Of a DNA stretch of 64,000 bases, positions 25,641-40,017 are shown in pieces. Location: NCBI GenBank assembly GCA_963826355.1, contig CAWGWX010000015.1, forward strand, positions 1,400 through 65,399, in the 5' to 3' direction. The stretch is from Nitrospirota bacterium (GTDB taxonomy: Bacteria; Nitrospirota; Thermodesulfovibrionia; Thermodesulfovibrionales; SM23-35). How positions within the stretch are numbered: the first letter of the stretch is position 1; every line of letters begins with the position of its first letter. Under the pieces are notes generated by a model. That model had not been told where the DNA came from and ran no database searches. It saw only the letters and a program-made list of their open reading frames with translations. Both the position numbers and the translations under genes were made by a program.

Positions 25641-26168
25641 ATGAAATACATCCTTAAAATTTTCATTCTCTCAGCCTTTATCCTCTTCATGGTCAACAGT
25701 GCTTTTGCTATTTCAGCACACTTACGGACTGAGGAGGCAAAAGAGAGCGACGTAAAAGGGGTATTCACAGTAATTCTTTATGGAGCCAGAGATATCAATG
25801 ACATCGAAACAGTAGCCATTCTTGATTTTGAAGGAGATCAGTATACTTTGGAGCCTTATGTACCTTCCTTCGACTATAAGGTGAAAAAGGGTCTCTCAGA
25901 AAAAGCGGCACTCGATGAGGCACATAAGTTTATCAGCTATCATAATGCCTTTTATCGTTCCCAGTTGAGTAAAATTGTTGATGACAAAGGTAATACCATT
26001 GGATATGAATTGAGACCTCTCTATATGCCTTTTGTCTTTGGCAGAAGCGATGTGCTTGAAGTAGATTATTGGCTCAAGGATGGAAAAGTGAAGGTCACCA
26101 TAAAACTCCACCCCTCAGTCGAAAGGGCTTTACCCGAAAGAACCATCGTTTCTTTTCTAAAACCCTGA
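25641..26168 (+). CDS. hypothetical secreted protein (Sec signal peptide)
   Basis: 175 aa. N-terminus MKYILKIFILSAFILFMVNSAFA/IS. No family recognised. Confidence 0.55.
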   Translation: MKYILKIFILSAFILFMVNSAFAISAHLRTEEAKESDVKGVFTVILYGARDINDIETVAILDFEGDQYTLEPYVPSFDYKVKKGLSEKAALDEAHKFISYHNAFYRSQLSKIVDDKGNTIGYELRPLYMPFVFGRSDVLEVDYWLKDGKVKVTIKLHPSVERALPERTIVSFLKP

Positions 26169-27584
26169 TATTGCAGCCTTGGCAAGCTTTACGAGGAAAG
26201 ATGGGAATATACCTATTACGAGCACAGCTACTGTTGTAACTCCAAGGGCGACTCCCAGTGTCCCGGATTGAGAGGTGCTTACTTCAACTTCAGGTTCCCT
26301 CATATACATATACATAACGATTCTCAAATAGAAATAAGCAGATATCGCGCTGAAGGTAACTGCAACGATGACAAGCCATGTGTAGCCGGCATTGATTGCA
26401 GCCATGAACACGTATAACTTACCGATAAAGCCGGCTGTGGGCGGGAGACCGGTAAGGGAAAACATAAATATCAGCATAAGGGCTGCCAAAAATGGATGTG
26501 TTTTGGCAAGACCTACATAGTCTGTAATATTGTCACCTTTGAAACCTTCAGTCCTGAGCATGATTACTACTGCAAAAGCCCCCATATTCATGAAGGCGTA
26601 TATCATCAGGTAGTTCATCATACTGGAAAGGCCTTCATTGTTTGCTACAATGATACCGATAAGGGCATATCCCGCATGAGCGATAGATGAATACGCAAGC
26701 ATCCTCTTAATGTTCGTCTGGGCTAAAGCAACGATGTTACCAACAGCCATAGAAAGGATTGAAAGAGGAATGAATACCATTGCCCATTCGATCTTCAGGG
26801 ACGCAAAGGCGATCATGAAGACTCTTCCGAGAACTGCAAAACCGGCTGCTTTGGGACCAACGGACATAAAGGCCGTAATAGACGTTGGTGCTCCCTCATA
26901 CGCATCGGGTGCCCACATGTGGAATGGTGCTGCAGCAATCTTAAACCCAAAGGCAACAGCAAAGAGTACCATAGAGAGGGAGAGTGCAGGATTACCGATA
27001 AGACCCTTTTCGCTGACAAAGAGCGCAATTGCTTTAATATCAGTTGTACCTGTGAGACCATAGATCATTGAAATTCCGTAAAGCAGGAAAGCCGATGAAA
27101 AGGCACCAAGGAGGAAGTACTTCAATGCTGCCTCGTTTGATTTAATATCATGTCGTATAAATCCTGCGAGGACATATGTACTGAGGGCCATGAGTTCGAG
27201 GCCAAGATAAAGTACGATAAGGTCGCCAGCCGAGGCCATAATCATCATGCCGAGAGTTGCAAGGAGGATGAGATTGTAATATTCTCCGTAATTTACCCTC
27301 TCGACAGCAATATATTTAATGGATATGAGAACAGAGAGGACGACGTTTATTAAAAAGATGGCCTTAAAGAAGGAACTATAACCATCGGAGATAAACATAC
27401 CTCCGAAGGTTACACCGGATGAACCAATCAAGGTATATGCCACGACAGCCACACCTATAATGCTCAAGGTTGCAATGACCTCTTTCTTTTTTACAAAGAG
27501 GTCTACCAGGATGAGTATGAGAGCAAGGGCAGTCATATAAAGCTCAGGAATGACAGGATTGAGATCCGGGAATGTGAAATTCAT
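26157..27584 (-). CDS. nuoN: NADH-quinone oxidoreductase subunit N
   Basis: 475 aa, ~14 TM, antiporter-like. Last gene of the nuo operon. 4-nt overlap with nuoM. Confidence 0.9.
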   Translation of the reverse strand: MNFTFPDLNPVIPELYMTALALILILVDLFVKKKEVIATLSIIGVAVVAYTLIGSSGVTFGGMFISDGYSSFFKAIFLINVVLSVLISIKYIAVERVNYGEYYNLILLATLGMMIMASAGDLIVLYLGLELMALSTYVLAGFIRHDIKSNEAALKYFLLGAFSSAFLLYGISMIYGLTGTTDIKAIALFVSEKGLIGNPALSLSMVLFAVAFGFKIAAAPFHMWAPDAYEGAPTSITAFMSVGPKAAGFAVLGRVFMIAFASLKIEWAMVFIPLSILSMAVGNIVALAQTNIKRMLAYSSIAHAGYALIGIIVANNEGLSSMMNYLMIYAFMNMGAFAVVIMLRTEGFKGDNITDYVGLAKTHPFLAALMLIFMFSLTGLPPTAGFIGKLYVFMAAINAGYTWLVIVAVTFSAISAYFYLRIVMYMYMREPEVEVSTSQSGTLGVALGVTTVAVLVIGIFPSFLVKLAKAAISGF

Positions 27585-29119
27585 CTGATTACCTCCATGA
27601 GGATTCTTGCTATCTGTGTCTCTTGACCACCCGCTACATTAACCCTCTCTAAGAGATGCTGGACTGTTGGGTGCATGAAATCAAGGAATGGGATTGGATA
27701 GGTACCTATCCAGAAAACAAGGACAACAAGAGGTGCAAGAGCTACTAGTTCCCTCAAATCCATGTCAGGCAGTCCAACAACCTTTTCATTGATCTTCATA
27801 AAGAAAACCCTCTGGTAAAGCCAGAGCATATAACCTGCTCCGATGATTACCCCTGATGCTGCAAGCACTCCAGCTAATTTATTTGCTGTGAACCCACCAA
27901 GGAGTGTGAGGAATTCCCCTATGAATCCGTTCGTGCCCGGGAGTCCTACTGCAGCGAGGGTGAAGACCATGAAAAAGGCTGCATATATAGGCATTGGGGT
28001 TGCGAGTCCACCATAATCTGCAATCTTCCGCGTGTGTGTTCTGTCATAGACTATTCCAACGCACATAAAGAGTGCACCCGTTACAACTCCGTGATTGATC
28101 ATCTGTATGATTCCACCCTCTATTCCCTGGCTGTTGAGGGCGAAGATTCCCAGGGTAATAAAACCCATATGGCTCACGGAACTATATGCAATAAGCCTTT
28201 TTAAATCTTTCTGGACGAGGCACACTAATCCAGCATATATGATGGCTATAACAGAGAGGGTCAACATAACAGGAACCAAGGCCTTTGTAGCCTCAGGGAA
28301 AAGGGGGATAGAGAATCTCAGGAAGCCATATGCTCCCATCTTGATAAGAATAGCCGCAAGGATTACACTGCCTGCTGTTGGTGCCTCAGTATGTGCATCT
28401 GGAAGCCATGTATGTACAGGAAACATGGGGACCTTCACTGCAAAGGCAGCAAAGAAGGCCCAGAAAAGCCAAAATTGTATATTGTAGGGGTATGTTTTTG
28501 TCGTCAATTCGAGGATGTCGAATGTCCTGCCTGCATGGAAATAGAGGAAGATTATTCCGACTAACATCAACACACTGCCAACCAGCGTATACAGGATGAA
28601 CTTTATCGTTGCATAAAGCCTGTTCGGACCTCCCCAGACCCCAATAATGAGGTACATGGGTATGAGCATCGCCTCCCAGAAGATATAGAAGAGGAATAAA
28701 TCAAGGGAAGAAAATACACCTGCGATAGCTCCACAAGTCAGGAGGATGGATATATAGAACTCTTTTACCTTTATCTTTATAGAGTTCCATGATATAAGGA
28801 TGCAGAGAATCGATGAAACGGTGGTAAGGAGTACAAGGAGAAGACTTATACCATCGACGCCCAGGTAATATTTGATATTCCAGGCAGATATCCAATCATG
28901 CCTTTCGACAAACTGCATCTTATAGGTAGTCTTATCAAAATTTATAAAGAGAGGGAGGGAAAGGATGAACGTCAGAAGGGCACATATCAGGGCTGCCCAT
29001 TTTATAAGCGACTCCTGTGATCTGGGGATAAGGGTGAGGAGCAGGGCACCCAGAACAGGAAGGAATATAATCGTGCTGAGAATCGGATAACCAAGACTAT
29101 TCATTATCACCTGTTCCAT
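27581..29119 (-). CDS. nuoM: NADH-quinone oxidoreductase subunit M
   Basis: 512 aa, antiporter-like. WLPDAHTEAPTAGSVILA motif. Confidence 0.92.
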   Translation of the reverse strand: MEQVIMNSLGYPILSTIIFLPVLGALLLTLIPRSQESLIKWAALICALLTFILSLPLFINFDKTTYKMQFVERHDWISAWNIKYYLGVDGISLLLVLLTTVSSILCILISWNSIKIKVKEFYISILLTCGAIAGVFSSLDLFLFYIFWEAMLIPMYLIIGVWGGPNRLYATIKFILYTLVGSVLMLVGIIFLYFHAGRTFDILELTTKTYPYNIQFWLFWAFFAAFAVKVPMFPVHTWLPDAHTEAPTAGSVILAAILIKMGAYGFLRFSIPLFPEATKALVPVMLTLSVIAIIYAGLVCLVQKDLKRLIAYSSVSHMGFITLGIFALNSQGIEGGIIQMINHGVVTGALFMCVGIVYDRTHTRKIADYGGLATPMPIYAAFFMVFTLAAVGLPGTNGFIGEFLTLLGGFTANKLAGVLAASGVIIGAGYMLWLYQRVFFMKINEKVVGLPDMDLRELVALAPLVVLVFWIGTYPIPFLDFMHPTVQHLLERVNVAGGQETQIARILMEVIR

Positions 29120-29123
29120 AGTA

Positions 29124-31037
29124 TCACCATAGTATAAAAATGATTAAAATAAGTACCCCGGCAGCCATTATGATTGCATAATGCTGGGCAAGACCTGTCT
29201 GTGCTTTCCTCAATATTCCGGCGAATCTTCCGATTGTCCTCGGGACACCATTTACAATACCTTCTATGATCTTTGCGTCCGTGAAACCCTCAATAAAGCG
29301 CTTAGCAATCCAGAGAGTGGGTCGGATGAGGATAAAGCTGTATAACTCATCAACATAGTATTTATTGAAGAGTATCCTGTAAATGAAGCGGAAGTTGTGT
29401 GCGAGTCTAACAGGTATACCCGTTTTCATGAGATAAAAGATTCCAGCAATAGCGAGGCCGGTAAGTGCTATAGACGTCGAAAGACCCATTATCCCAAATT
29501 CCTGTGCATGGGTTCCGTGGAACTCGGGATGCCCGACTACGGGTTTCAGAAACTCAGCAAATTGGGCACCTCCTCCGAGTATTTCGGGGATACCAACCCA
29601 TCCTACACCGATTGCACCGGCAGCCAATATTATAAGAGGTATGGTCATAACTGCTGGTGACTCGTGGAGGTGATGTTCCTCGTGATGGGTTCCACGGAAT
29701 TTTCCATGGAATGTAAGGAAGATCATTCTGAATGAATAAAAAGGCGTAAAGAAGGCAACAGCAGTAACAACAATCCATACAAACTTTCCTATAGGGCTTC
29801 CAGAGGCAAAGGCAGACCAGATGATCTCGTCCTTGCTAAAGAATCCTGCAAGACCCGGGACACCTCCAGCGCTTAATGCTGCTATGAACATGGTAATGTA
29901 GGTAATCGGCATATATTTTTTGAGGCTACCCATCCTCTGGATGTCATTATGGTGAACAGCATGGATGACACTTCCTGCAGCGAGGAACAGTAATGCCTTG
30001 AAGAATGCATGGGTATAAAGGTGAAAGACTCCTGCAGCGTAGGCACCCACCCCGCATGCGAGGAACATCATTCCGAGGTGGCTTAATGTAGAGTAAGCGA
30101 TGATCCTTTTTATATCATTCTGGACAACGGCGATAGTAGCTGCAAACAAGGATGTAACCGCTCCGACAATGGCTACCACGTTCATTGCTATGGGCGATAA
30201 ATTAAATATGGTATTACACCTTGCTACCAAGAATACACCTGCCGTGACCATTGTTGCAGCATGGATGAGGGCACTGACAGGTGTCGGACCTTCCATTGCA
30301 TCGGGTAGCCATACATGGAGGGGTATCTGGGCTGATTTACCGATGGAGCCGCAAAAGAGGAGTAATGCTATCAAAGTTATTAAATCAACCTCATATCCGA
30401 GGAAGTTTACGGTCTGGCCTACAACGGTTTTTACCTGAGCAAATACAGGGACATAGTGGAGAGTCCCAAAGGTGAGGAATATCATGAATACACCGAGGGC
30501 AAACCCGAAGTCGCCAAATCTATTTACAATAAATGCCTTCTTCCCTGCATCAGCTGCTGCCTTCTTTTCGTACCAGAAACCTATCAGAAAATAGGAGCAG
30601 AGACCAACACCCTCCCACCCAAGGTAGAGCTGGACAAAGTTATTCGCTGTGACGAGCATGAGCATAAAGAACGTAAAAAGGCTTAGATAGGCAAAAAACC
30701 TGTAATAACCTTTATCTCCGTGCATATAGCCAATAGAGTAAATATGGATGAGAGAACCAACAAACGTAACGACAATGATCATTACCGCTGTAAGCTGGTC
30801 GATAAGGAAACCGACAGAGACCTTGAACGTACCAGAAATTATCCAGGTGTAGAGGTCTTCGTTTATTATCTTGCCATGAATGACGTCCCATGCGGTTATT
30901 GCCGATGCAACAAAGGAACCAATAATTGCGAGGCATGAAAACCAGTATGCCTTATCTCTTATGAGACTCCTGCCAAAAAGGATGTTTATGACAAATGCTG
31001 CCAGAGGTAAAAAGGGTATCAATAAATAGGTTTTCAT
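29124..31037 (-). CDS. nuoL: NADH-quinone oxidoreductase subunit L
   Basis: 637 aa. WLPDAMEGPTPVSALIHAATMV, with a long C-terminal extension (lateral helix region). Confidence 0.93.
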   Translation of the reverse strand: MKTYLLIPFLPLAAFVINILFGRSLIRDKAYWFSCLAIIGSFVASAITAWDVIHGKIINEDLYTWIISGTFKVSVGFLIDQLTAVMIIVVTFVGSLIHIYSIGYMHGDKGYYRFFAYLSLFTFFMLMLVTANNFVQLYLGWEGVGLCSYFLIGFWYEKKAAADAGKKAFIVNRFGDFGFALGVFMIFLTFGTLHYVPVFAQVKTVVGQTVNFLGYEVDLITLIALLLFCGSIGKSAQIPLHVWLPDAMEGPTPVSALIHAATMVTAGVFLVARCNTIFNLSPIAMNVVAIVGAVTSLFAATIAVVQNDIKRIIAYSTLSHLGMMFLACGVGAYAAGVFHLYTHAFFKALLFLAAGSVIHAVHHNDIQRMGSLKKYMPITYITMFIAALSAGGVPGLAGFFSKDEIIWSAFASGSPIGKFVWIVVTAVAFFTPFYSFRMIFLTFHGKFRGTHHEEHHLHESPAVMTIPLIILAAGAIGVGWVGIPEILGGGAQFAEFLKPVVGHPEFHGTHAQEFGIMGLSTSIALTGLAIAGIFYLMKTGIPVRLAHNFRFIYRILFNKYYVDELYSFILIRPTLWIAKRFIEGFTDAKIIEGIVNGVPRTIGRFAGILRKAQTGLAQHYAIIMAAGVLILIIFILW

Positions 31038-31095
31038 ATTTTCAACCTTTTAAACTTCCAACTTAGAACTTTACGCTTTGCACTCTGCACTTTCA

Positions 31096-31398
31096 TCATC
31101 CCTTCATCTCTTGAATCTCATCCACATGGGCTGTAGCCTTGTTTCTGAAGAAGGCGATGATTATTGCAAGTCCTATCGCAGCTTCTGAAGCTGCAACAGC
31201 GATAACAAAGAAAGCGAGGATCTGTCCCCGCAGATCCTGCAGGTAGTGGCTCAGGGATATGAGATTGATATTGACAGCATTGAGCATCAGCTCTATGGAC
31301 ATGAAGATGATAATAATGTTTCTCCTCGAGAGGAACCCAAAAACGCCGATGGTAAAAACCACCGTACTGAGTACCATGTACCAGCTTAACGGAACCAT
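31096..31398 (-). CDS. nuoK: NADH-quinone oxidoreductase subunit K
   Basis: 100 aa, 3 TM. SIELMLNAVNINL...AASEAAIGLAI. Confidence 0.93.
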   Translation of the reverse strand: MVPLSWYMVLSTVVFTIGVFGFLSRRNIIIIFMSIELMLNAVNINLISLSHYLQDLRGQILAFFVIAVAASEAAIGLAIIIAFFRNKATAHVDEIQEMKG

Positions 31399-31401
31399 AA
31401 A

Positions 31402-31914
31402 CTAACCTTTAAGCCTCCTCTTTGCAAGGACTATAGCACCAATTATTGCAACAAGAAGTATCAGTGAAGCTATTTCAAAAGGAAAGAGAAAGTCTGTATA
31501 TAATAATTTCCCCAGGGCCTTTACATGAGACTCCTTTTTTATAAAGTCAATGGTATACATGCCTGGTGGAGCAAGGACAAAAGACCTGATTGACATTAGA
31601 ATGACTGCCAGGAGCCCAATTGCAAAGGTCAATCCTGTTGGCCAGGCACCGATAAATCTATTTATCCTGAGTTCTTCCCTGATGTTCAACAACAGCACAG
31701 CAAAAAGGAACAACACAAGTATTCCACCTGCATAAACAATCACCTGTATGACTGCTATAAACTCAGCATTCAAAAAAAGATACAGACTTGCTATGTGGAA
31801 GAAGAGTAAAAGCATCCAGAGCACACTGTGGATAGGGTTTTTCCTCGTTATAACGAGTATCGAAAGTAAGACAATGGCAAAGGCAAAATAAGCAAAGATT
31901 ATTTCGTGAATCAT
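31402..31914 (-). CDS. nuoJ: NADH-quinone oxidoreductase subunit J
   Basis: 170 aa, 5 TM. Position between nuoI and nuoK. VYAGGILVLFLF. Confidence 0.88.
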   Translation of the reverse strand: MIHEIIFAYFAFAIVLLSILVITRKNPIHSVLWMLLLFFHIASLYLFLNAEFIAVIQVIVYAGGILVLFLFAVLLLNIREELRINRFIGAWPTGLTFAIGLLAVILMSIRSFVLAPPGMYTIDFIKKESHVKALGKLLYTDFLFPFEIASLILLVAIIGAIVLAKRRLKG

Positions 31915-32441
31915 GAGCGTTTCCCTCTGAATACTGCCTGACCTGAAGGAGTCTCAAAATCATCAGACAGGGGTCGCCAGAATTTCCTGAAATACTCTTC
32001 TCCCTTTTTCCCACCCATATATTTATCCCAATTTTGAAGCAGTCTATCCTTTGTCCGATAGAGGTTTTCTTTCTTATAATCAGAATATTCATAATTCTCT
32101 GTGAGGACGACCGCTCCATACGGGCATACCTCCATGCAAAACCCGCAGAAAATACATCTCAATACATCTATCTCATATCTTGCAACCTGTCCTTTTTCTC
32201 TGAAGACAGAAATACACTGTGAAGGGCAGATTGTAGCACAAAGTCCGCAGCCAACACATTTCGCCTTACCCTCTGGATTTTTTGCTAAGGCATGCTCGCC
32301 TCTGAAACCCGGTGCTATTTTTCGCCTTTCCTTGGGATACTGTATAGTAACGGCATGTGAGAACATTCGTCTTAAGGTAAGAGCCATACCTTTGAGTATT
32401 TCTATGAAGAATATCTTCTCTACAAGTTTCTTAGCAGTCAC
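31911..32441 (-). CDS. nuoI: NADH-quinone oxidoreductase subunit I (2x[4Fe-4S]) with a ~35-aa C-terminal extension
   Basis: 176 aa. CVGCGLCATICP and CIFCGFCMEVCP. Confidence 0.93.
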   Translation of the reverse strand: MTAKKLVEKIFFIEILKGMALTLRRMFSHAVTIQYPKERRKIAPGFRGEHALAKNPEGKAKCVGCGLCATICPSQCISVFREKGQVARYEIDVLRCIFCGFCMEVCPYGAVVLTENYEYSDYKKENLYRTKDRLLQNWDKYMGGKKGEEYFRKFWRPLSDDFETPSGQAVFRGKRS

Positions 32442-32452
32442 TCTTCACTCCC

Positions 32453-33508
32453 TTAATGTGATACGAGAATTTTAACCAGACCTGTCACCAATATGTTTGC
32501 CAATGCCACCGGTATAAGCACCTTCCAGCCGATAGCCATAAGCTGGTCATATCGGTATCTTGGCACCGTTGCTCTTATCCAGTAATAAAAGAAAATAAAG
32601 GCGTAGACTTTTAAAAGAAACCATACAATTCCTGGCACATGTTGTAGAAATGGTAACGCCTTTGCGACATACCATGGGATTGTCCAGCCGCCGAGAAAGC
32701 ATACTGCTGCGAGAGAAGCCATAATAAACATTGCTATGTACTCACCAAGGAAGAAAAGCGCAAACCTGAAGCCACTGTATTCCACAAAATACCCTGCAAC
32801 AAGCTCGCTCTCAGCCTCAGGGAGGTCAAAGGGTGTCCTGTTTGTTTCAGCTATTGCAGCGATAGTGAACACGACGAAAGCCACTATCTGAGGTATTGCA
32901 TACATTCCGTACCGAGACGCTTCCTGTGCCATTACGATATCAGATAGATTCAGAGATCCTGCCTTGATTATCACACCGACAAGACTCAGACCCATTGCTA
33001 TTTCATAACTGATGACCTGTGCCGATGACCTCAGGCCGCCAATGAATGCATATTTAGAGTTCGATGCCCACCCTGATATGAATATGCCATAGACACCAAG
33101 ACCTGCTATGGCAAAGATGAATAAAAGCCCTACATTGATGTTTGCGATTACAAAATGAGACGAGAAAGGAATAACCGCCAGGTTTATCATGGATGCAGCC
33201 ATAAAGATGACAGGGGCGAGGTAAAACAACGTCTTATCTGCATCTGCCGGAATCACGTCTTCCTTGAAGAACAATTTTATACCATCAGCAATTGGCTGTA
33301 ATAATCCATGTGGTCCCACCCTCATCGGACCAAGTCTCACCTGCATATGTCCAATAACCTTGCGCTCGAAATAGGTAGCATATGCTACATGGAGAAGCCC
33401 AATCCCGAGAACCACAGCAATCTTTATTATGATGATTGCAACATTAATTCCAAATTTCGTTAATGTATCAAGTGTTGTGGGCGATATGATATTAGTAATA
33501 GTGTCCAT
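32453..33508 (-). CDS. nuoH: NADH-quinone oxidoreductase subunit H
   Basis: 351 aa. RKVIGHMQVRLGPMRVGPHGLLQPIADGIKL, ETNRTPFDLPEAESELVAGY. Confidence 0.95.
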   Translation of the reverse strand: MDTITNIISPTTLDTLTKFGINVAIIIIKIAVVLGIGLLHVAYATYFERKVIGHMQVRLGPMRVGPHGLLQPIADGIKLFFKEDVIPADADKTLFYLAPVIFMAASMINLAVIPFSSHFVIANINVGLLFIFAIAGLGVYGIFISGWASNSKYAFIGGLRSSAQVISYEIAMGLSLVGVIIKAGSLNLSDIVMAQEASRYGMYAIPQIVAFVVFTIAAIAETNRTPFDLPEAESELVAGYFVEYSGFRFALFFLGEYIAMFIMASLAAVCFLGGWTIPWYVAKALPFLQHVPGIVWFLLKVYAFIFFYYWIRATVPRYRYDQLMAIGWKVLIPVALANILVTGLVKILVSH

Positions 33509-33510: not shown

Positions 33511-34989
33511 TTACCTGTCACACTCACCGAGTACGATATCGATCGTTCCTATGTTAGCTATTACATCTGCAACCAGATGCCCAACGCACAGCCTTGGCAA
33601 AACACCGGCGTGCACAAAAGAAGGTGCCCTTACCCTCATCCGGTAAGGCTTTCCTGATCCATCGCTCACAAAATAAAAACCGAGTTCCCCTTTCGGAACT
33701 TCTGTGGCAACGTAGATTTCTCCCTCTGGGGCCCTCGGTCCTCTTCTAACAAACTCAAAATGTTTAACAAGGTGTTCTTGGGCTTTTGTGAACTCTTCTG
33801 GTAACGGAGCTTCAGCCAATTCAGCCAGTTTTTCATCGCTCAGGCCTTTCCCACCTGGTACTATTGTCAATGCTTTAAACTTGCAGGTCGCAAAACAGGT
33901 AGCGCAACCCAAACACAATTCCTGCTTAATTGTATGAGGTTTTTTCTTTTCCCCGAAGATTGCTTTTGCAGGACATGCCCTCATACACATGCCACACCCT
34001 TTACAGGCTTTTTCCTTAATATAAAATGCATGTGCTTGAGTGGGATGGGTGATAGGAAACATTTTATCCTTCGGTTGGAGGGTAAATTTAGGGGCATCTG
34101 CCATAACAGGACCTGGAGGCAGCATTTCGATACACTGCCTGATGATCTTGTTTGACTGCCTCATTTCCAGCATTCTGCAGCGGTATCTGTCGTAGGTATC
34201 ACCCTCTGTTCCGATGGGTACTTCAAAATCAACCTTATCATAGGCATCATAGGGGAAATGTTTTCGTACATCATAAGGAACGCCTGAGCCCCTTAATGTC
34301 GGCCCTGTGAGTCCCCAGTTTATTGCTTCTTCTGCTGAGATTACCCCAATGCCTATAGTCCTCTTAAGCCATATCCTGTTCTGGTCAATAAGGGTCTCAT
34401 ATTCCAGAATCCGTGAAGGGAATTCTTCAGTGAACTTATAAAGGCTGTCAAGAAATTCTTGTGAAACATCGTTTCTTACGCCACCTATTCTTGGATAGGT
34501 GACAGTAAGTCTCGCACCACAGATCATCTCAAACAGTTCAAGGATCCACTCCCTCTCCCTGAAACAATAGAGGAAAACCGTCATTGCACCGATATCAAGG
34601 GCGTGGGTTGCCAGCCAGAGGAGATGGTTAGATATCCTTGACATCTCCCCGACAATAGTTCTTATGAATTTGGCCCTCTCTGGAGCCTCTATTTCGAACA
34701 GTTTTTCAACGGCAACGACATAGCCAATATTATTTGACATTGCAGAGACATAATCCATTCTGTCTGTAAGAGGTAATGCCTGGAAGTAACTCAGGCTTTC
34801 ACCAAGCTTTTCGATACCTCTGTGCAGATAACCTATATAAGGTGTTACGTTAACAATGATTTCACCATCTATATCAAGGACGAGTCTCAGGACACCGTGG
34901 GTGGCCGGGTGCTGCGGCCCCATATTGACATTGAGTTCCCTTGTTTCGAATATCTTCTCTACCTGCTCCATCCTATCCTTCCCACTCAA
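33511..34989 (-). CDS. nuoD: NADH-quinone oxidoreductase subunit D carrying an internal ~90-aa 2x[4Fe-4S] ferredoxin-like insertion
   Basis: 492 aa against ~400 for canonical Nuo[17 protein letters not shown]-terminus and [13 protein letters not shown]...RVRAPSF C-terminus. Insert at residues ~311-401 has [12 protein letters not shown] and [11 protein letters not shown]. Confidence 0.93.
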
Positions 34990-35563
34990 ACTCCCTTAAT
35001 TCCTTTGATCTGGTTAGCACCTCAGTAAAGCCATGCCAGTCTTTCTCAGGCTCAGGACCTTTGAGAGGATAGTCTTTTCTCAAAGGGTGTCCTTCCCAAT
35101 CCTCTGGCAGGAGAATCCTTCTGAGATCAGGATGACCCTTGAATTCTATTCCGAACATGTCAAAACATTCTCTTTCGTGCCAATTAGCACCTGCCCAAAT
35201 AGATGTAACCGTGTGGATATGGGAGTCATTCTCTGGAACTTGAGCCCTCACTCTTATCCTGTGAAGGTATTTTATGGAATAAAGGTTATATACAACTTCG
35301 AATCGCGGTTCCTTTTTACCATGGTAATCAACGCCACAAAGATCCTGGAGGTGTTCAAAAAGTAAAACGGGTTCATCATGGAGGTACCTGCAGATATCTC
35401 CAATCCTGCCTCTCTTAACGATGACAGAAACCTGATCCCTGAAATTTGTGACGTCTACAACTTCGTTAGGGAACTTTTCCTTTATTTTTTCTGCTATCTC
35501 GGTTGGTTCCAGCCCCTTGAAGGGTAAGGAGATTCTTGTCAGTACTACCGCCATGGACTCCAC
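34973..35563 (-). CDS. nuoC: NADH-quinone oxidoreductase subunit C
   Basis: 196 aa. [26 protein letters not shown]. Confidence 0.93.
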
Positions 35564-36066
35564 CTCGCCCGTTCATGGCGTATCTTCTCCTGAAGCTTCA
35601 TCATTCCCTCTAATAATGTTTCAGGTCTCGGAGGACAACCAGGAACATACACATCAACAGGGAGAAAGGTATCACAGCCCTGAACTGTATTGTATGTTCT
35701 GAAGATTCCGCCAGTGCATGCACAGCTTCCCATGGCTACTACATACCTCGGTTCAGGAATCTGGTCATAAACCCTTCTGACAACAGGGGCCATCTTTTTT
35801 GTGACAGTACCGGCAATAATCATGCAATCTGCCTGTCTTGGCGAGCCCCTGAATATGATTCCGAACCTGTCAAAGTCATAATGGGCTGCGCCTGCAGCCA
35901 TCATCTCGATTGCACAGCATGCGAGGCCGAATGTTGTTGGCCATATTGACGATAATCTCCCCCAGTTAATGATTTTGTCAAAGGTGGTGATAATGATATT
36001 TGGAGGTAATATCTTTGTGCCTTCTTCTACCTGAATAAGGCCAACTGTTGATGTATCAATCAACAT
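35545..36066 (-). CDS. nuoB: NADH-quinone oxidoreductase subunit B (cluster N2)
   Basis: 173 aa. [26 protein letters not shown]. Confidence 0.95.
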
Positions 36067-36088: not shown

Positions 36089-36460
36089 TTAATCCCACTG
36101 GAAGGCCTCTTTCTTCCAGGCGTAAATATAACCTACGAAAAGGATTACGATGAAGATAACCATTTCTATAAATGCGTACAGCCCGATTTTATCGAATACT
36201 ACAGCCCATGGATAGATAAATATCGCCTCAACATCGAACACCACAAAAAGCATGGCAATAACGTAAAACCTGATGGAAAATCTATAGCGAGGTTCTCCTT
36301 TCGGGGTGATGCCTGATTCATAAGGCATGAGCTTTTCATGATAGGGCTTTTTTGGTCTGAAAATCATACCGAGTAGTAAGGCACCAAGACCAAAAGCTGC
36401 CGCGATCAAAATAAAAATAAGAACTGGTAAATATTCTGATGGTAAATAGGTTCCAGGCAT
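36089..36460 (-). CDS. nuoA: NADH-quinone oxidoreductase subunit A
   Basis: 123 aa, 3 TM. PYESGI...FYVIAMLFVVFDVE. Confidence 0.92.
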   Translation of the reverse strand: MPGTYLPSEYLPVLIFILIAAAFGLGALLLGMIFRPKKPYHEKLMPYESGITPKGEPRYRFSIRFYVIAMLFVVFDVEAIFIYPWAVVFDKIGLYAFIEMVIFIVILFVGYIYAWKKEAFQWD

Positions 36461-36561: not shown

Positions 36562-36570
36562 TGCTATAAT
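36562..36570 (+). promoter_or_regulatory. candidate extended -10 promoter (TGcTATAAT) overlapping the first ATG of the pntAA ORF
   Basis: tgctataat at 36562-36570. The next in-frame ATG at 36581 would give a leader of ~4 nt. Confidence 0.35.
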
Positions 36571-37687
36571 GTTTGCCATTATGTCCTTGAGCGTTTCCAT
36601 TTTAAGAGAAGTAACACCAGATGAAAAAAGGGTAGCTTTGGTACCCGAGTCTGTTAAAAAGCTTACAGACAAGGGTTTCAAGGTGCATATTGAAAGAGGA
36701 GCAGGTGAGAATGCACGCTATCCTGATTCATCGTATAGAGAATCTGGTGCCGAAGTCTTAGAGAGCGCCAGAGAAGTTTTATCCCTCGCTCAAATCATTC
36801 TCAAGGTTCAACCTCCAACACCTGAAGAAATAGATGCAATCTCCCCTGGCAGTTTTGTGATCGGGCTTCTGCAGCACTATAAATATCCAGAGAGAGTAAA
36901 GAAGATGGCTGGAAAAAATATCAATGCCTTTGCAATAGAACTTATTCCACGGATTAGCAGGGCACAATCGATTGATGCCCTTTCCTCTCAAGCTGCCGTT
37001 GCCGGATACAAGGCAGCAATTATCGCTGCAAACCTGTCGAGCAGATTTTTCCCTATGCTTACAACCGCAGCAGGAACAATTAGACCGTCTAAGGTTCTGG
37101 TTATAGGGGCTGGGGTTGCTGGTCTTCAGGCTATAGCAACTGCCAGAAGGCTTGGCGCAGTCGTAGAAGCCTATGATGTGAGAAAGGCAGCAAAAGAAGA
37201 AATTGAAAGCCTCGGTGCAAGATTTCTTGAATCTCCCGTTGTTGCTGAAGGAGCAGGAGGATACGCAAGAGAACTTACGCAAGAGGAAAAAGATACGCAA
37301 CACAAATTCATGGCTGACAATATTGGGAGGGCTGATGTTGTGATAACGACAGCCCAGGTGCCAGGCAGAAAGGCACCGGTCATTATTACCAGAGATATGG
37401 TCGATAAGATGAAACCTTCCTCTGTTATCGTTGATATTGCTGCGGAGAATGGCGGAAACTGCGAACTTACCAAACCGGGTGAGACTTTGGAGTATAAAGG
37501 TGTTCTTATATATGGACCTTTAAACCTCCCAAGCACTTTAGCTACCCATGCGAGCGAGATGTATTCAAAAAATCTCGTCAATTTTTTGAACCTCCTCACG
37601 AAAGACGGGAAAACCCTCGATGTGGATTTCAACGATGAAATACTCCAGAAATCCTGCATAACGTATAAAGGCGAGACAAAGATATAG
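36569..37687 (+). CDS. pntAA: NAD(P) transhydrogenase subunit alpha, part 1 (true start may be the ATG at 36581)
   Basis: 372 aa. E.RVALVPESVKKL, VLVIGAGVAGLQAIATARRLGA Rossmann motif. Confidence 0.92.
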   Translation: MFAIMSLSVSILREVTPDEKRVALVPESVKKLTDKGFKVHIERGAGENARYPDSSYRESGAEVLESAREVLSLAQIILKVQPPTPEEIDAISPGSFVIGLLQHYKYPERVKKMAGKNINAFAIELIPRISRAQSIDALSSQAAVAGYKAAIIAANLSSRFFPMLTTAAGTIRPSKVLVIGAGVAGLQAIATARRLGAVVEAYDVRKAAKEEIESLGARFLESPVVAEGAGGYARELTQEEKDTQHKFMADNIGRADVVITTAQVPGRKAPVIITRDMVDKMKPSSVIVDIAAENGGNCELTKPGETLEYKGVLIYGPLNLPSTLATHASEMYSKNLVNFLNLLTKDGKTLDVDFNDEILQKSCITYKGETKI

Positions 37688-37699
37688 GAGGCTTTTGAA

Positions 37700-37981
37700 A
37701 TGAGCGAAATATGGATTGCCCTCTACATTTTTATCCTTTCCGGGTTTACAGGTTTTGAGGTTATCTCAAGAGTACCCGTTATCCTTCATACTCCCCTCAT
37801 GTCAGGAACAAACTTTATTCACGGGATCGTTTTAGTCGGAGCCATGGTTGTCATGGGAAGGGCTGAAACTACGACGGAGATGATCATCGGTGCTCTCGGT
37901 GTTTGGCTTGGTGTCCTGAATGTTGTAGGTGGGTTTGCGGTGACGGACAGGATGCTGGAGATGTTTAAGAAGGGGAAATGA
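37700..37981 (+). CDS. pntAB: NAD(P) transhydrogenase subunit alpha, part 2 (membrane)
   Basis: 93 aa, 3 TM. HTPLMSGTNFIHGIVLVGA. Confidence 0.9.
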   Translation: MSEIWIALYIFILSGFTGFEVISRVPVILHTPLMSGTNFIHGIVLVGAMVVMGRAETTTEMIIGALGVWLGVLNVVGGFAVTDRMLEMFKKGK

Positions 37982-37985
37982 GATT

Positions 37986-39356
37986 ATGGGGAACCTCGTT
38001 AAAGCCACTTATCTTGTAAGCACTATATTTTTCATTCTCGGTTTGAAGATGCTCTCATCCCCGGCAACGGCCCGTCGTGGTAACCTCTTGGCCGGCCTCG
38101 GGATGATTTTGGCAATAACCGTCACATTTTTTATACCAAACATGAAACACCAATTGCTCATGATCCTGATCATCTTAGTGGGTACTGTTATTGGGTGGGT
38201 TTCAGCCAAAAAAGTTCCCCTTACAGATATGCCTCAAATGGTAGCTCTCTTCAACGGTATGGGAGGGGGTGCTGCTGCTGTCATTTCCTATCTCGAGCTT
38301 TCCAGAGGCGAAGTCACTTCCGGGCTAAAACTTTTGGCTATCAGCGGAGGTTTGATAGGGAGTTTCTCCTTTAGCGGGAGTATCGGAGCCTTTATGAAAC
38401 TTCAGGGTCTTATGAAAGACAGACCCGTGACGTATCCATTACAAAAGCCCTTTCATGCTGTCTTATTTTTGCTATCCCTTGTCCTGGGTTATTTTGTTCT
38501 CATACAATCAACATCATCTCTCCAAGGCATACTAAACGTCTTAAATCTCTTCTTTGTATTGCCTCTTTCACTGGGTCTCCTTTTGACTCTCCCTATTGGC
38601 GGCGCTGATATGCCTGTTATCATAGCGCTTTTTAACGCATTAACCGGTCTTGCTGTAGGGTTTGACGGTTTCGCCATCGGTAATCAAGCTATGATGGTGA
38701 GCGGAACCATCGTGGGTGCCTCAGGTAGCCTCCTTACTTACCTCATGGCAAAGGCGATGAATAGGTCTATTCGCAATGTACTTTTCGGGGCCTTTGGGAA
38801 AGTCCGTGAGCACGGAGTCGCGAAGGAAATGAAGCCAAGGGAAATTGAAGATGCAGCGATAATGATTGGATTTGCAAGGAAGGTTATTGTGGTTCCAGGG
38901 TATGGATTGGCTGTGGCACAGGCACAGCACAAATTAAGGGAGTTTATGGGTATATTGGAAGATAAAGGTGTGGAGATAAAGTTTGCTATACATCCGGTAG
39001 CTGGAAGGATGCCTGGCCATATGAATGTCCTCCTTGCAGAAGCCAATATTCCCTATGATAAACTCCATGACCTTGAAGAAATCAACTCTGAATTCCCAAC
39101 AGCGGACGTTGCTTTAATTGTTGGTGCAAATGATGTAGTGAACCCATCTGCTGAAACGGATTCCTCGAGCCCCATATACGGGATGCCTATCCTGAAGGCG
39201 TACCAGTCAAAAAATGTTCTGGTAATAAAGAGGGGGAAGGGTAAAGGTTTTGCCGGAATTGAAAACGACCTCTTTTTTATGGATCAGACCTATATGCTTT
39301 TTGGAGATGCCCAGGATGTGCTTGGCAAATTGGTCCAAGCGTTAAAGAAGATTTAA
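37986..39356 (+). CDS. pntB: NAD(P) transhydrogenase subunit beta
   Basis: 456 aa. N-terminal TM domain plus NADP(H) domain (VPGYGLAVAQAQH, HPVAGRMPGHMNVLLAEA). Confidence 0.93.
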   Translation: MGNLVKATYLVSTIFFILGLKMLSSPATARRGNLLAGLGMILAITVTFFIPNMKHQLLMILIILVGTVIGWVSAKKVPLTDMPQMVALFNGMGGGAAAVISYLELSRGEVTSGLKLLAISGGLIGSFSFSGSIGAFMKLQGLMKDRPVTYPLQKPFHAVLFLLSLVLGYFVLIQSTSSLQGILNVLNLFFVLPLSLGLLLTLPIGGADMPVIIALFNALTGLAVGFDGFAIGNQAMMVSGTIVGASGSLLTYLMAKAMNRSIRNVLFGAFGKVREHGVAKEMKPREIEDAAIMIGFARKVIVVPGYGLAVAQAQHKLREFMGILEDKGVEIKFAIHPVAGRMPGHMNVLLAEANIPYDKLHDLEEINSEFPTADVALIVGANDVVNPSAETDSSSPIYGMPILKAYQSKNVLVIKRGKGKGFAGIENDLFFMDQTYMLFGDAQDVLGKLVQALKKI

Positions 39357-39369: not shown

Positions 39370-40017
39370 TTAGTGGCCGTGCTCGCCTTGTGCTTCTTCT
39401 TCCTCTTCTTCATAACCACTGAACATTGCTATTATGTGGGCAAAGGTCGTATGTCCAAGTGTCGCAAGATAAAAATGGACAATGATAAAGGCGCTGAAGA
39501 AAATCCAGAGAAGTACGTGTACGATGTCTACTATTTGTATTCCGCCTACGAGATTAACGAACGGTGAAAAGAGCTTGGGATCCCAGAGGAGAAGCCCGGT
39601 GATAAGCTGTAAGGGGATAAGAAGTGCCATGATCATGAGGTAGGATACCTGTTGCATGGGGTTGAACTTGTGGTCTGGTGTAGAATGATGGGGATTATGG
39701 TCTCCGACCATGATCCCAAAACCGTAAAATTTGGCCTGCTGTATGCTCTTCTTTAAAAACTCTATCGGGTGATTGAGAGGTGGAATATATATCTTTATCT
39801 TTAAAGTGAGGAGGTAGTAAAGAAACCATATGAAATAATTTGCTATGAGAATAAACCCTGTCCAACTGTGGATTTTAACAGCCGTTTCAAAGGAGAAAAG
39901 ATGAAGGACATTGCCGAATCTGACCTGAGCTCCTGTAACAATAAGGACGATGAATGCAAGTGCATTAATCCAGTGCCAGATCCGTATAGGTAGCGGATGA
40001 AGGTATATCTTTTTCAT
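39370..40017 (-). CDS. membrane di-haem cytochrome b (PhsC / Ni-Fe-hydrogenase b-type cytochrome family), acidic/His-rich C-terminal tail
   Basis: 215 aa. HPLPIRIWHWINALAFIVLIVTG, 4 TM with conserved His. Overlaps the upstream multihaem gene by 4 nt. Confidence 0.75.
   Translation of the reverse strand: MKKIYLHPLPIRIWHWINALAFIVLIVTGAQVRFGNVLHLFSFETAVKIHSWTGFILIANYFIWFLYYLLTLKIKIYIPPLNHPIEFLKKSIQQAKFYGFGIMVGDHNPHHSTPDHKFNPMQQVSYLMIMALLIPLQLITGLLLWDPKLFSPFVNLVGGIQIVDIVHVLLWIFFSAFIIVHFYLATLGHTTFAHIIAMFSGYEEEEEEAQGEHGH

What the first reader, a model, noticed from the sequence alone, without database searches (positions are those of the whole stretch)
33787..34059. NuoD carries an internal ~90-aa insertion with two complete [4Fe-4S] ferredoxin motifs
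The NuoD ORF is 492 aa, against about 400-410 aa for canonical NuoD/Nqo4. It is colinear with NuoD at both ends ([15 protein letters not shown] ... [13 protein letters not shown] ... RVRAPSF). Residues ~311-401 interrupt the conserved stretch between [14 protein letters not shown] and [10 protein letters not shown].

The insert reads ...[20 protein letters not shown]...[16 protein letters not shown]..., that is CxxCxxCxxxCP plus CxxCxxCxxxC. This is the classic dicluster ferredoxin signature. I checked the codons on the minus strand and the ORF is uninterrupted.

The operon lacks nuoE/F/G, so there is no NADH-oxidising module. A ferredoxin-like domain built into the Q-module could therefore be an alternative electron entry or relay point. 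I do not know of a described complex I with this architecture.
Basis: partly seen in the sequence, partly recalled or inferred. Interest (0 to 1): 0.8.

Follow-up and report, generated by a model that had tools for sequence, protein, structure and literature searches.

The report
Complex I NuoD with built-in ferredoxin domain
In a clade of uncultured sulfate-reducing Nitrospirota, the complex I-like enzyme has lost its NADH-oxidising module, and its NuoD subunit has captured a two-cluster ferredoxin-binding domain from a bifurcating hydrogenase-type enzyme, placed where ferredoxin docks in photosynthetic complex I, which points to ferredoxin as the donor of such 11-subunit enzymes.

Summary
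NuoD (window 33511-34989, minus strand) carries a 92-residue insert, aa 310-401, with two complete Cys motifs.

**Not an artefact.** The insert occurs in about 70 protein clusters and 22 GTDB species. All are uncultured Thermodesulfovibrionia. All eight cysteines are invariant, and dN/dS is about 0.08.

**Origin.** The insert is 60-73% identical to the C-terminal B3/B4 ferredoxin-binding domain of a HydB/NuoF-like (Bfu-type) protein of the same order. It keeps that domain's Lys-rich ferredoxin-docking loop.

**Position.** By sequence register it lies 11-17 residues before the equivalents of NdhH K315 and K321, which contact ferredoxin in cyanobacterial NDH-1L.

**Co-variation.** The only changes elsewhere that fully track the insert are:
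- NuoD 403-419;
- the tip of the NuoI hairpin, which is 5 residues shorter and basic instead of acidic. This hairpin is the other wall of the NDH-1 ferredoxin pocket.

**Relation to nuoEFG.** The insert never co-occurs with nuoEFG (0 of 21 operons). One mosaic operon keeps a nuoE remnant.

**Best reading (inferred, not shown).** A built-in two-cluster relay and ferredoxin dock feeds N6a, making a ferredoxin:menaquinone oxidoreductase.

I found no description of this in the literature. I rate it a new variant of a known kind.

The parts
33511..34989 (-). nuoD (NuoD/Nqo4/49-kDa homologue). It is 492 aa from the TTG start at 34989. Public gene calls start at the ATG at 34971, giving 486 aa.
   Evidence: - ORF.
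- TIGR01962: 548.8 bits against a cut-off of 459.
- PDB 49-kDa chains: E about 1e-128.
- Quinone-site residues H31, Y80 and D132 are present.
- The exact 486-aa form is in public databases.
33787..34062 (-). The 92-aa insert, NuoD aa 310-401. It has three parts:
- an N-linker, [12 protein letters not shown];
- a 2x[4Fe-4S] ferredoxin-like core, aa 322-378;
- an acidic C-linker, aa 379-401.
   Evidence: - Boundaries.
- Pfam Fer4 families at aa 322-373.
- Similarity to a HydB-like C-terminus: 60% identity over 72 aa, E 5e-27.
- dN/dS about 0.08.
- AF2 pLDDT 75-87 over the insert.
33970..34005 (-). First cluster motif, [12 protein letters not shown] (C329, C332, C335, C339, P340).
   Evidence: Translation checked. 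The cysteines are invariant in 70 homologues and in 23 locus sequences.
33883..33915 (-). Second cluster motif, [11 protein letters not shown] (C359, C362, C365, C369), followed by an invariant KFK.
   Evidence: Translation checked. The cysteines are invariant.
33934..33954 (-). Lys-rich loop GEKKKPH (K348-K350) between the two motifs.
   Evidence: - It aligns without gaps to A. woodii HydB 543-596. K348-350 therefore equal HydB K570-572, the loop proposed to dock ferredoxin (PMC10021017).
- K348 and K349 are invariant.
33733..33783 (-). Segment just after the insert that co-varies with it: NuoD aa 403-419, [17 protein letters not shown].
   Evidence: - All fully insert-discriminating NuoD columns outside the insert lie here: 403, 404, 409, 412, 415 and 419. 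Positions 415 and 419 become K/R.
- R419 aligns with NdhH K321 and position 413 with NdhH K315, the ferredoxin contacts in NDH-1L.
31911..32441 (-). nuoI. It carries the N6a and N6b motifs.
   Evidence: Pfam Fer4 dicluster. PDB TYKY/NuoI chains at E 1e-37.
32157..32222 (-). NuoI hairpin between the two Cys motifs, aa 74-95. The tip is REKGQ, window 32187-32201. The hairpin is shortened by 5 residues in all insert-bearing operons.
   Evidence: - Length: 22 aa in 19 of 19 insert-bearing operons. It is 26-27 aa in 48 of 48 insert-less operons, including 12 other 11-subunit operons.
- NuoI positions 81 and 85 are the only discriminating columns outside NuoD.
- The NdhI ferredoxin contacts K86, K89 and K91 lie at the tip of the same hairpin.
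35545..36066 (-). nuoB. It carries the N2 cluster.
   Evidence: Pfam Oxidored_q6. C50, C51, C115 and C144 are present.
34973..35563 (-). nuoC.
   Evidence: Pfam Complex1_30kDa.
26157..33508 (-). nuoH, J, K, L, M and N, the membrane arm, with nuoI lying between nuoH and nuoJ. nuoH starts directly after nuoD with no nuoEFG between them. nuoA lies upstream at 36089-36460.
   Evidence: ORFs. Proton_antipo_M for the nuoN ORF. Synteny with 80 related loci.

Best explanation
[quoted passage not shown] Its NuoD has captured the C-terminal two-[4Fe-4S] ferredoxin-binding domain of a Bfu-type NuoF/HydB protein.

**Where the domain sits.** It is inserted in the NuoD surface loop at the apex of the Q-module, next to the NuoI hairpin and cluster N6a. 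Soluble ferredoxin docks at this spot in photosynthetic NDH-1. The N-module binds to this region of the Q-module in 14-subunit complex I.

**Proposed mechanism.**
1. Reduced ferredoxin, or a similar acidic low-potential carrier, docks on the strongly basic Fer4 core through the GEKKKPH loop.
2. Electrons pass through the two inserted clusters to N6a, then N6b, then N2, and then to menaquinone.
3. This drives proton translocation.
4. In this organism the menaquinol would feed QmoABC-AprAB. The reaction could also run in reverse.

**What is shown.**
- The insert, its conservation and the purifying selection on it.
- Its homology to the Bfu B3/B4 domain.
- Its sequence-register position relative to the ferredoxin contacts of NdhH.
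- Its exclusive co-variation with NuoD 403-419 and the NuoI hairpin tip.
- Its mutual exclusion with nuoEFG.
- Intact N2, N6a, N6b and quinone-site ligands.

**What is inferred.**
- That the clusters assemble.
- That the proximal inserted cluster lies within electron-transfer distance of N6a.
- That ferredoxin is the partner.
- The direction of electron flow and its coupling to proton pumping.
For: 1. **Real and selected.**
   - Pfam Fer4 families are above cut-off at aa 322-373.
   - All 8 Cys, plus K348 and K349, are invariant in 70 proteins and 23 loci.
   - dN/dS is about 0.08.
2. **Origin.**
   - The best non-NuoD match is the C-terminus of a 620-aa protein with 2Fe-2S_thioredx, Complex1_51K, NADH_4Fe-4S and Fer4 domains, from related Thermodesulfovibrionales. 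Identity is 60% over 72 aa at E 5e-27, and up to 73% for other inserts.
3. **Role of that domain elsewhere.**
   - In HydB it holds clusters B3 and B4 and is the proposed ferredoxin site, through the loop K570-572 (PMC10021017).
   - In NfnABC, ferredoxin was seen by cryo-EM at the NfnB Fd-like domain, within 13 A of B3 and B4 (PMC12018979).
   - HydB K570-572 align with NuoD K348-350.
4. **Position.**
   - In the NDH-1L-ferredoxin structures, ferredoxin contacts NdhH K315 and K321 and NdhI K86, K89 and K91. Its cluster is 9.6 A from N6a (PMC7021789, PMC6992706).
   - By sequence register, the insert lies at NdhH E303/W304, and K315 and K321 equal NuoD 413 and 419.
5. **Co-variation.**
   - The NuoI hairpin is 22 aa in 19 of 19 insert-bearing operons and 26-27 aa in 48 of 48 others. 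Its tip changes from acidic to basic.
   - Fully discriminating columns occur only in NuoD 310 and 403-419 and in NuoI 81 and 85. None occur in NuoA, B, C, H, J or K.
6. **Exclusivity with nuoEFG.**
   - 0 of 21 insert-bearing operons have nuoEFG, against 35 of 47 insert-less ones.
   - L011 is a recombinant whose nuoD-nuoH spacer keeps 21 codons of nuoE.
7. **Charge.** The Fer4 core carries about +7.8 at pH 7, which suits an acidic ferredoxin.
8. **Context.** sat-aprBA-qmoABC and an H+-PPase in the window indicate a menaquinone-based sulfate-reducing metabolism.
Against: - **No 3-D evidence.** The only model is an AF2 monomer of modest quality, mean pLDDT 65.7. No coordinates or multimer model were available, so the insert-to-N6a distance is unknown.
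- **Position rests on register.** Placement relies on sequence register with NdhH, in a stretch with little sequence identity between NuoD and NdhH.
- **Flexible linkers.** The 12-aa and 23-aa linkers could let the domain sit elsewhere or move.
- **Insert is not required in general.** Three close relatives (L022, L025, L026) and nine other 11-subunit operons work without it.
- **Limited independence.** The insert-bearing operons are mostly one clade, plus one recombinant.
- **No experimental data.** There are no expression or biochemical data, and all carriers are uncultured.
Confidence: 0.6

Rival explanations
1. **Adaptor for a dedicated partner enzyme.** The inserted di-cluster domain wires the Q-module to a specific soluble oxidoreductase rather than to free ferredoxin. 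Candidates are a Bfu-type NuoE/HydB/NuoG-like complex, Hdr/Flox-like enzymes or a hydrogenase. The domain would act as a replaceable N-module socket.
For: - In Bfu enzymes the same domain also receives electrons from a protein-bound cluster, C1 of HydC/NfnC (PMC10021017, PMC12018979).
- Two insert-bearing loci, L004 and L016, have NuoE-like, HydB-like and NuoG-like genes divergent from nuoA.
- The 11-subunit Q-module has been called a docking platform for various donors (PMC3144371).
Against: - The neighbouring Bfu-like genes are present in only 2 of 22 insert-bearing loci. In the window and in L001, L006, L018 and L019 the neighbour is pntAB.
- The Lys-rich loop linked to ferredoxin docking is invariant.
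- No conserved extra gene accompanies the insert within 10 kb.
Confidence: 0.17
2. **Tethered carrier.** The Fer4 domain is a swinging arm on flexible linkers. It shuttles electrons between a donor and N6a instead of being rigidly docked.
For: - The insert has a 12-aa N-linker and a 23-aa acidic C-linker around a basic core.
- The homologous HydB and NfnB domains are highly mobile in cryo-EM and molecular dynamics (PMC10021017, PMC12018979).
- The linkers evolve faster, with dN/dS about 0.12.
Against: - Tight co-variation with the NuoI hairpin tip and NuoD 403-419 suggests a defined packing interface.
- The N-linker motif M-x-P-I-T-H-P is strongly conserved.
Confidence: 0.1
3. **Off-pathway role.** The clusters are structural or regulatory. 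They could be N7-like scaffolds that fill the surface vacated by NuoG, or a redox sensor. They would not carry catalytic electrons.
For: - There is a precedent: N7 in NuoG is off-pathway (PMC8357420).
- The insert occurs only where nuoEFG is gone, so it could simply cap an exposed surface.
- Other 11-subunit operons function without it.
Against: - A cap would not need eight invariant Cys, a conserved ferredoxin-docking Lys loop and a strongly basic surface.
- Twelve other 11-subunit operons leave the same surface uncapped and keep the long acidic NuoI hairpin.
Confidence: 0.1
4. **Artefact.** The insert results from chimeric assembly, a frameshift fusion or a pseudogene.
For: Other ORFs in the window look split or truncated: purH and a phosphoglucomutase.
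Against: - The ORF is intact.
- The identical architecture occurs in about 70 clusters from independent JGI, ENA, NCBI and Logan assemblies, and in 22 species representatives.
- The insert is under purifying selection.
Confidence: 0.01

Closest known systems
Photosynthetic NDH-1 (cyanobacterial and chloroplast ferredoxin:plastoquinone oxidoreductase)
   Same: - It has eleven Nuo-type core subunits without NuoEFG.
- Electrons enter at N6a.
- The ferredoxin pocket is formed by the NdhI hairpin and the C-terminal fragment of NdhH. These are the same two elements that are remodelled here (PMC6992706, PMC7021789).
   Different: - NDH-1 adds no clusters. It uses extra small subunits (NdhS, V, O, M, N) to shape the site.
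- Here a 2x[4Fe-4S] domain is inserted into NuoD and the NuoI hairpin is shortened rather than long and Lys-rich.
- The NdhH NCBIfam model is below its cut-off, 376 against 583.
- The quinone is presumably menaquinone.
C-terminal Fd-like domain (clusters B3/B4) of the Bfu-family beta subunits HydB, NfnB and HoxF
   Same: - It is the closest sequence relative of the insert: 60-73% identity to a Thermodesulfovibrionales HydB-like protein.
- It has the same two Cys motifs and the same GE(K/R)xKP(H/Y) loop.
- It is the established or proposed ferredoxin site (PMC10021017, PMC12018979).
   Different: - There it is the C-terminal end of an FMN flavoprotein in a soluble bifurcating enzyme, and it donates to ferredoxin.
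- Here it is an internal insert in a [NiFe]-hydrogenase-like quinone-site subunit of a membrane proton pump.
Other 11-subunit complex I-like enzymes (Desulfitobacterium, Chlorobi, Desulfovibrio and others)
   Same: They share the nuoABCDHIJKLMN operon and lack the N-module. Ferredoxin is suspected as donor but this remains unresolved (PMC11238625, PMC3144371).
   Different: - They have an ordinary NuoD of about 400 aa.
- The twelve other 11-subunit operons compared here keep the long acidic NuoI hairpin and have no insert.
Canonical 14-subunit complex I: NuoG clusters N4 and N5 feeding N6a
   Same: Two [4Fe-4S] clusters upstream of N6a would restore a longer wire at the same face of the Q-module. 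The nearest 14-subunit relatives are 76-92% identical in NuoD.
   Different: - The insert is not derived from NuoG or NuoI. Identity to NuoI is only 28-34%.
- There is no FMN or NADH site.
- The insert and nuoEFG are mutually exclusive.
Other N-module replacements: FpoF in the archaeal Fpo complex, and the proposed ferredoxin-dependent Fpo-like complex of Methanothrix (both from my own knowledge)
   Same: They follow the same logic: the Q- and P-modules are kept and the electron-input device is swapped.
   Different: - Those use separate subunits or none at all.
- The FpoD model is below its cut-off here, 358 against 600.
- I know of no case with the input domain inserted inside NuoD.

Membership tests
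NuoD / Nqo4 / 49-kDa subunit of complex I | Score above the curated family threshold over the full length. | tested here: met
   TIGR01962 548.8 bits (cut-off 459.35). NF004739 536.9 bits (cut-off 360). Both. PDB 49-kDa chains at E about 1e-128. Foldseek TM 0.55-0.70 to 49-kDa chains.
NuoD / Nqo4 / 49-kDa subunit of complex I | Quinone-site residues (T. thermophilus H38, Y87, D139) present, and the [NiFe] Cys ligands absent. | tested here: met
   H31, Y80 and D132 are present and invariant in the family. There is no N-terminal CxxC. The C-terminus is GECDR rather than DPCxxC.
11-subunit complex I-like operon (Nuo11) | nuoABCD directly followed by nuoHIJKLMN, with no nuoEFG. | tested here: met
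   No NuoE, NuoF or NuoG homologue in the 64 kb. Whether nuoEFG lie elsewhere in the genome could not be tested.
Bacterial-type 2x[4Fe-4S] ferredoxin domain | Two CxxCxxCxxxC(P) motifs, and Pfam dicluster models above their gathering scores. | tested here: met
   Fer4 37.0 (cut-off 21.1), Fer4_6 36.7 (25), Fer4_21 36.7 (35), Fer4_7 31.5 (27). All. The 8 Cys are invariant.
Bacterial-type 2x[4Fe-4S] ferredoxin domain | Actually binds two [4Fe-4S] clusters. | not testable with these tools
   This needs EPR or iron analysis, or a structure.
Bfu-family beta subunit (HydB/NfnB) C-terminal Fd-binding domain | Sequence homology to the B3/B4 domain, including the Lys-rich loop. | tested here: met
   - 60% identity over 72 aa, E 5e-27, to the L071 HydB-like protein.
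- 7p5h_B residues 570-626 at E 9e-13 and 9n5u_B residues 542-597.
- K348-350 equal A. woodii HydB K570-572.
Bfu-family beta subunit (HydB/NfnB) C-terminal Fd-binding domain | Attached to an FMN/NADH-binding NuoF-like core. | tested here: not met
   The host protein is NuoD and has no Complex1_51K domain. Only the domain, not the protein, belongs to this family.
Photosynthetic NDH-1 (NdhH) | NdhH equivalog score, and the oxygenic-photosynthesis-specific subunits. | tested here: not met
   NF005649 scores 375.9 bits, below its cut-off of 583. No extra small subunit genes lie in the operon. A genome-wide search was not possible.
F420H2 dehydrogenase (FpoD) | FpoD model score. | tested here: not met
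   NF040602 scores 358.4 bits, below its cut-off of 600.
Ferredoxin:quinone oxidoreductase (functional class) | Ferredoxin-dependent quinone reduction coupled to proton translocation. | not testable with these tools
   This is inferred only, from position, origin and co-variation.

The most novel reading that the evidence does not exclude
This is a previously unrecognised, self-contained solution to electron input in complex I. A ferredoxin-binding di-cluster domain was taken from a neighbouring bifurcating enzyme and spliced into NuoD at the ferredoxin pocket. NuoI co-adapted, and the change spread by homologous recombination. In each operon where it landed, it replaced the NADH module. If so, these bacteria run a five-cluster ferredoxin:menaquinone proton pump, possibly reversible for pmf-driven ferredoxin reduction. 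The case would also be direct natural evidence that ferredoxin is the partner of N-module-less complex I enzymes outside phototrophs.
Probability: 0.5. Interest if true: 0.8.

Novelty: new variant of a known kind. Interest (0 to 1): 0.66.

Why it matters
**An open question.** The electron donor of the widespread 11-subunit complex I-like enzymes of anaerobes is still unresolved (PMC11238625, PMC3144371). Here evolution placed a bona fide ferredoxin-docking domain at the site where ferredoxin binds in NDH-1. It remodelled the neighbouring NuoI hairpin, and it did so only where the NADH module is absent. That is the strongest sequence-level pointer so far to ferredoxin-type input at N6a in non-photosynthetic members.

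**A testable construct.** NuoBCDI with and without the insert could be tested by EPR, binding assays and cryo-EM.

**Domain capture.** This is a clean, datable example of domain capture inside a conserved respiratory core subunit.

**Secondary loss of the N-module.** The nuoE remnant in L011 is direct evidence for this loss. It qualifies the view that 11-subunit operons are simply ancestral.

**Annotation.** Public databases currently label these proteins only as NuoD.

Tried and rejected
- **AF2 monomer model of NuoD.** The alignment had 76 sequences. Mean pLDDT was 65.7 and the core was patchy because the alignment is shallow. The tool returns no coordinates or PAE, so cluster distances could not be measured.
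- **Foldseek against the PDB.** It only re-found 49-kDa subunits and gave nothing on the placement of the insert.
- **Representative-library search with the insert (aa 298-406).**
  - Only one representative passed E<1e-30, and it is the same family.
  - No other NuoD-like protein appeared in the top 150. P0139 (491 aa) looked promising by length but is not NuoD.
  - Caveat: clustering at 50% identity may hide insert-bearing NuoDs under insert-less representatives. Independent insertions with a divergent Fer4 would also be missed.
- **Origin from NuoI or NuoG.** Rejected. Identity to NuoI is 28-34% and no better match was seen in the nuoEFG regions of the loci, against 50-73% to HydB-like C-termini.
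- **A ferredoxin gene between nuoD and nuoH in relatives with 0.5-0.7 kb gaps.** Rejected. The gaps encode a cNMP-binding-like protein.
- **A simple 'nuoEFG lost once, insert gained once' history.** Not sustained.
  - Monophyly of the insert-bearing NuoDs has only 7% bootstrap support.
  - L024, a 14-subunit insert-less operon, groups with L011.
  - L011 is a recombinant.
- **Junction DNA.** No repeats or other hallmarks of the insertion mechanism were found.
- **Literature.** Four searches and two papers read for it gave no prior description. PMC13647500 was irrelevant.
- **dN/dS.** dS is saturated at about 1.6-1.8, so the ratios are rough.
Full report
**1. The observation**

The ORF at 33511-34989 on the minus strand is uninterrupted. 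It encodes 492 aa from a TTG start. Public gene calls start at the ATG at 34971 and give 486 aa. That exact protein is in NCBI, JGI and ENA, annotated only as NuoD.

Domain and structure searches agree on a NuoD with an internal insert:
- Pfam finds Complex1_49kDa in two stretches. Between them, at aa 322-373, it finds Fer4, Fer4_6, Fer4_21 and Fer4_7, all above their gathering scores.
- NCBIfam NuoD TIGR01962 scores 548.8 bits against a cut-off of 459.
- PDB 49-kDa/Nqo4 chains align to aa 4-309 and 391-492 and skip the middle. The middle alone matches the C-terminal di-cluster domains of HydB, HoxF and NfnB.

Relatives that are 87-90% identical in the core but lack the insert fix its limits. 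It spans aa 310-401, window 33787-34062, a net gain of 90-92 aa. It replaces the short loop PPKD-YIL-KD-MEHLIHQF.

The rest of the electron chain looks intact:
- The quinone-site residues H31, Y80 and D132 are present.
- The N2 cysteines of NuoB are present.
- Both NuoI motifs are present.

nuoD abuts nuoH, and no nuoE, nuoF or nuoG exists in the 64 kb.

**2. Not chance and not an artefact**
- About 70 clusters at 90% identity have the same architecture. They are 486-495 aa long and 80-94% identical to the query. They come from independent JGI, ENA, NCBI and Logan assemblies.
- Twenty-two GTDB species representatives carry it. All are uncultured MAGs labelled Thermodesulfovibrionia, Thermodesulfovibrionales or 'Nitrospirae'.
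- All eight cysteines are invariant. So are K348, K349, H352 and the KFK after the last Cys.
- The insert evolves faster than the core, with mean identity to the query of 75% against 89%. It is still under strong purifying selection. dN/dS is about 0.08, against 0.03-0.05 for the core. dS is saturated, so these values are rough.

**3. Where the insert came from**

A tblastn of the insert against the fetched loci gave NuoI only 28-34% identity. It gave 50-60% identity to a gene 7-9 kb upstream of nuoD in several insert-less relatives. That gene encodes a 620-aa protein with 2Fe-2S_thioredx, Complex1_51K, NADH_4Fe-4S and a C-terminal Fer4 dicluster. This is a Bfu-type HydB/NuoF-like beta subunit.

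- The window's insert matches the last 72 residues of that protein at 60% identity, E 5e-27, including part of the tail.
- Other inserts reach 73% identity.
- Among 1.84 billion representatives, the next-best hits after the family itself are polyferredoxins and HydB C-terminal fragments.

The insert is therefore a captured Bfu B3/B4 domain from within the same order.

**4. What that domain does elsewhere**
[quoted passage not shown] Simulations dock ferredoxin on a Lys-rich loop, K570-572 in A. woodii (PMC10021017).
- In NfnABC, ferredoxin was seen by cryo-EM at the NfnB Fd-like domain, with its cluster within 13 A of B3 and B4 (PMC12018979).
- The insert aligns without gaps to A. woodii HydB 543-596. 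HydB K570-572 therefore equal NuoD K348-350, in the loop GEKKKPH.
- The Fer4 core is strongly basic, about +7.8 at pH 7. The C-linker is acidic.

**5. Where the insert sits on complex I**

No coordinates were available to me, so I used published contacts and sequence register.

- The contacts are NdhI K86, K89 and K91 and NdhH K315 and K321.
- The ferredoxin cluster lies 9.6 A from N6a (PMC7021789, PMC6992706).

I recovered the T. elongatus NdhH and NdhI sequences, with numbering, from PDB alignments. The named residues are indeed lysines. With NdhH P323, G325, Y328 and E332 equal to NuoD P421, G423, Y426 and E430, the register gives:
- the insert at NdhH E303/W304;
- NdhH K315 equal to NuoD 413;
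- NdhH K321 equal to NuoD R419.

The insert therefore enters the chain 11-17 residues before the ferredoxin-contact residues.

**6. Co-variation: the strongest new evidence**

Across 67 operons, the NuoI hairpin between the two Cys motifs shows a clean split:
- It is 22 residues long in all 19 insert-bearing operons.
- It is 26-27 residues long in all 48 insert-less operons, including 12 other 11-subunit operons.
- Its tip changes from TSEGEDHxK to REKGQ or RAKGK.

This is the same hairpin tip that carries K86, K89 and K91 in NdhI.

I then searched for alignment columns whose residue sets do not overlap between insert-bearing and insert-less operons:
- In NuoD, outside the insert, only 403, 404, 409, 412, 415 and 419, plus 310 at the insert's N-junction. 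Positions 415 and 419 become K/R.
- In NuoI, only 81 and 85.
- In NuoA, B, C, H, J and K, none.

The two elements that form the ferredoxin pocket in NDH-1 are thus the only ones that co-evolved with the insert.

**7. Evolutionary history**

More distant relatives, 76-80% identical, have nuoE, nuoF and nuoG between nuoD and nuoH.

The insert-bearing NuoDs form a clade with L022, L024, L025 and L026 at 100% bootstrap. L022, L025 and L026 are basal, 11-subunit and insert-less.

L024 is insert-less and has 14 subunits, with nuoE and nuoF following nuoD. It groups with insert-bearing L011. L011 turns out to be a mosaic:
- The 5' part of its nuoD is 86-92% identical at nucleotide level to L024.
- Its insert is closest to L003 (88%), and the 3' part of its nuoD to L004 (89%).
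- Its 159-bp nuoD-nuoH spacer keeps the first 21 codons of nuoE.

So the insert cassette moves by homologous recombination, and nuoEFG was lost at least twice.

The insert is never found with nuoEFG. The count is 0 of 21 insert-bearing operons, against 35 of 47 insert-less ones. Fisher's test gives p = 2e-9, but the operons are not phylogenetically independent.

**8. Mechanism**

The best-supported reading is a ferredoxin:menaquinone oxidoreductase. The inserted domain would be both the ferredoxin dock and a two-cluster extension of the wire into N6a. It would occupy the face that the N-module uses in 14-subunit enzymes.

The window also encodes adk, sat, aprBA, qmoABC and an H+-PPase. The menaquinol would therefore plausibly feed sulfate reduction. 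Reverse operation, with pmf-driven ferredoxin reduction, is not excluded.

Three rivals cannot be excluded without a structure or biochemistry:
- an adaptor for a dedicated partner enzyme;
- a tethered swinging carrier;
- an off-pathway, N7-like cap.

An artefact is excluded.

**9. Comparison with what is known**

Functionally this resembles NDH-1, with the same entry site. Its input domain is a Bfu B3/B4 domain. It is not a member of the NdhH or FpoD families, because both models score below their cut-offs. The host protein is not a Bfu beta subunit.

Four literature searches, and two genomics papers read for it, gave no description of a NuoD with an internal ferredoxin domain. The donor of 11-subunit complex I-like enzymes is stated to be an open question (PMC11238625).

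**10. Verdict**

I rate it a new variant of a known kind, with interest 0.66. The main limits are that there is no 3-D model of the assembly, no biochemistry, a narrow uncultured clade, and a survey that could miss independent insertions elsewhere.

Noticed in passing
window 5310-17327 (+): The genes adk, sat, aprB, aprA, qmoA, qmoB, qmoC and a membrane H+-pyrophosphatase lie in a row. This is the APS pathway of dissimilatory sulfate reduction, or its reverse. It identifies the organism as a sulfur-cycling Thermodesulfovibrionia member.
   Followed up: partly
window 36569-39356 (+): pntAA, pntAB and pntB (the proton-translocating NAD(P) transhydrogenase, by similarity as I read the translations; not scanned against family models) are divergently transcribed from nuoA. 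The arrangement is kept in L001, L006, L018 and L019. A functional link to the NADH-module-less complex is possible but was not examined.
   Followed up: no
window 39370-42068 (-): A 684-aa multihaem cytochrome c with c7, c3, NrfB and MtrC-like domains is followed by a cytochrome b561-like membrane protein. The pair is conserved next to the nuo/pnt region in L007, L018 and L019.
   Followed up: no
L011 6257-6414 (nuoD-nuoH spacer): The spacer holds a remnant of the first 21 codons of nuoE (MFSETAIKKLEEIKTRYPDGK) in an insert-bearing 11-subunit operon. The nuoD of this operon is a recombinant of an L024-like 5' part and an L003/L004-like insert and 3' part. This is direct evidence of secondary loss of the N-module genes.
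   Followed up: yes
L033, L036, L037, L040, L042 (between nuoD and nuoH): Another clade of 11-subunit operons carries an ORF of about 150 aa between nuoD and nuoH. It looks like a cyclic-nucleotide-binding protein by its sequence motifs; it was not scanned against family models. This is a different, unexplained embellishment of N-module-less complex I.
   Followed up: no
L004 3319-8398 and L016 2150-8416 (-): In two insert-bearing genomes, NuoE-like, HydB-like and NuoG-like genes lie divergently upstream of nuoA. In many 14-subunit relatives a hydB-like gene lies 7-9 kb upstream of nuoD. The likely donor gene type of the insert is therefore a genomic neighbour of the nuo operon.
   Followed up: partly
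window 18430-19723 (+) and 49593-50423 (+): purH (AICARFT/IMPCHase) is split into two ORFs. A phosphoglucomutase ORF starts within domain II. These are possible frameshifts or assembly errors elsewhere in the window.
   Followed up: no
NuoD aa 310-316 (window 34042-34062, -): The N-linker of the insert has a near-invariant motif, M-x-[PMS]-[ILV]-T-[HQ]-P, of unknown role. It may be part of the packing interface.
   Followed up: no
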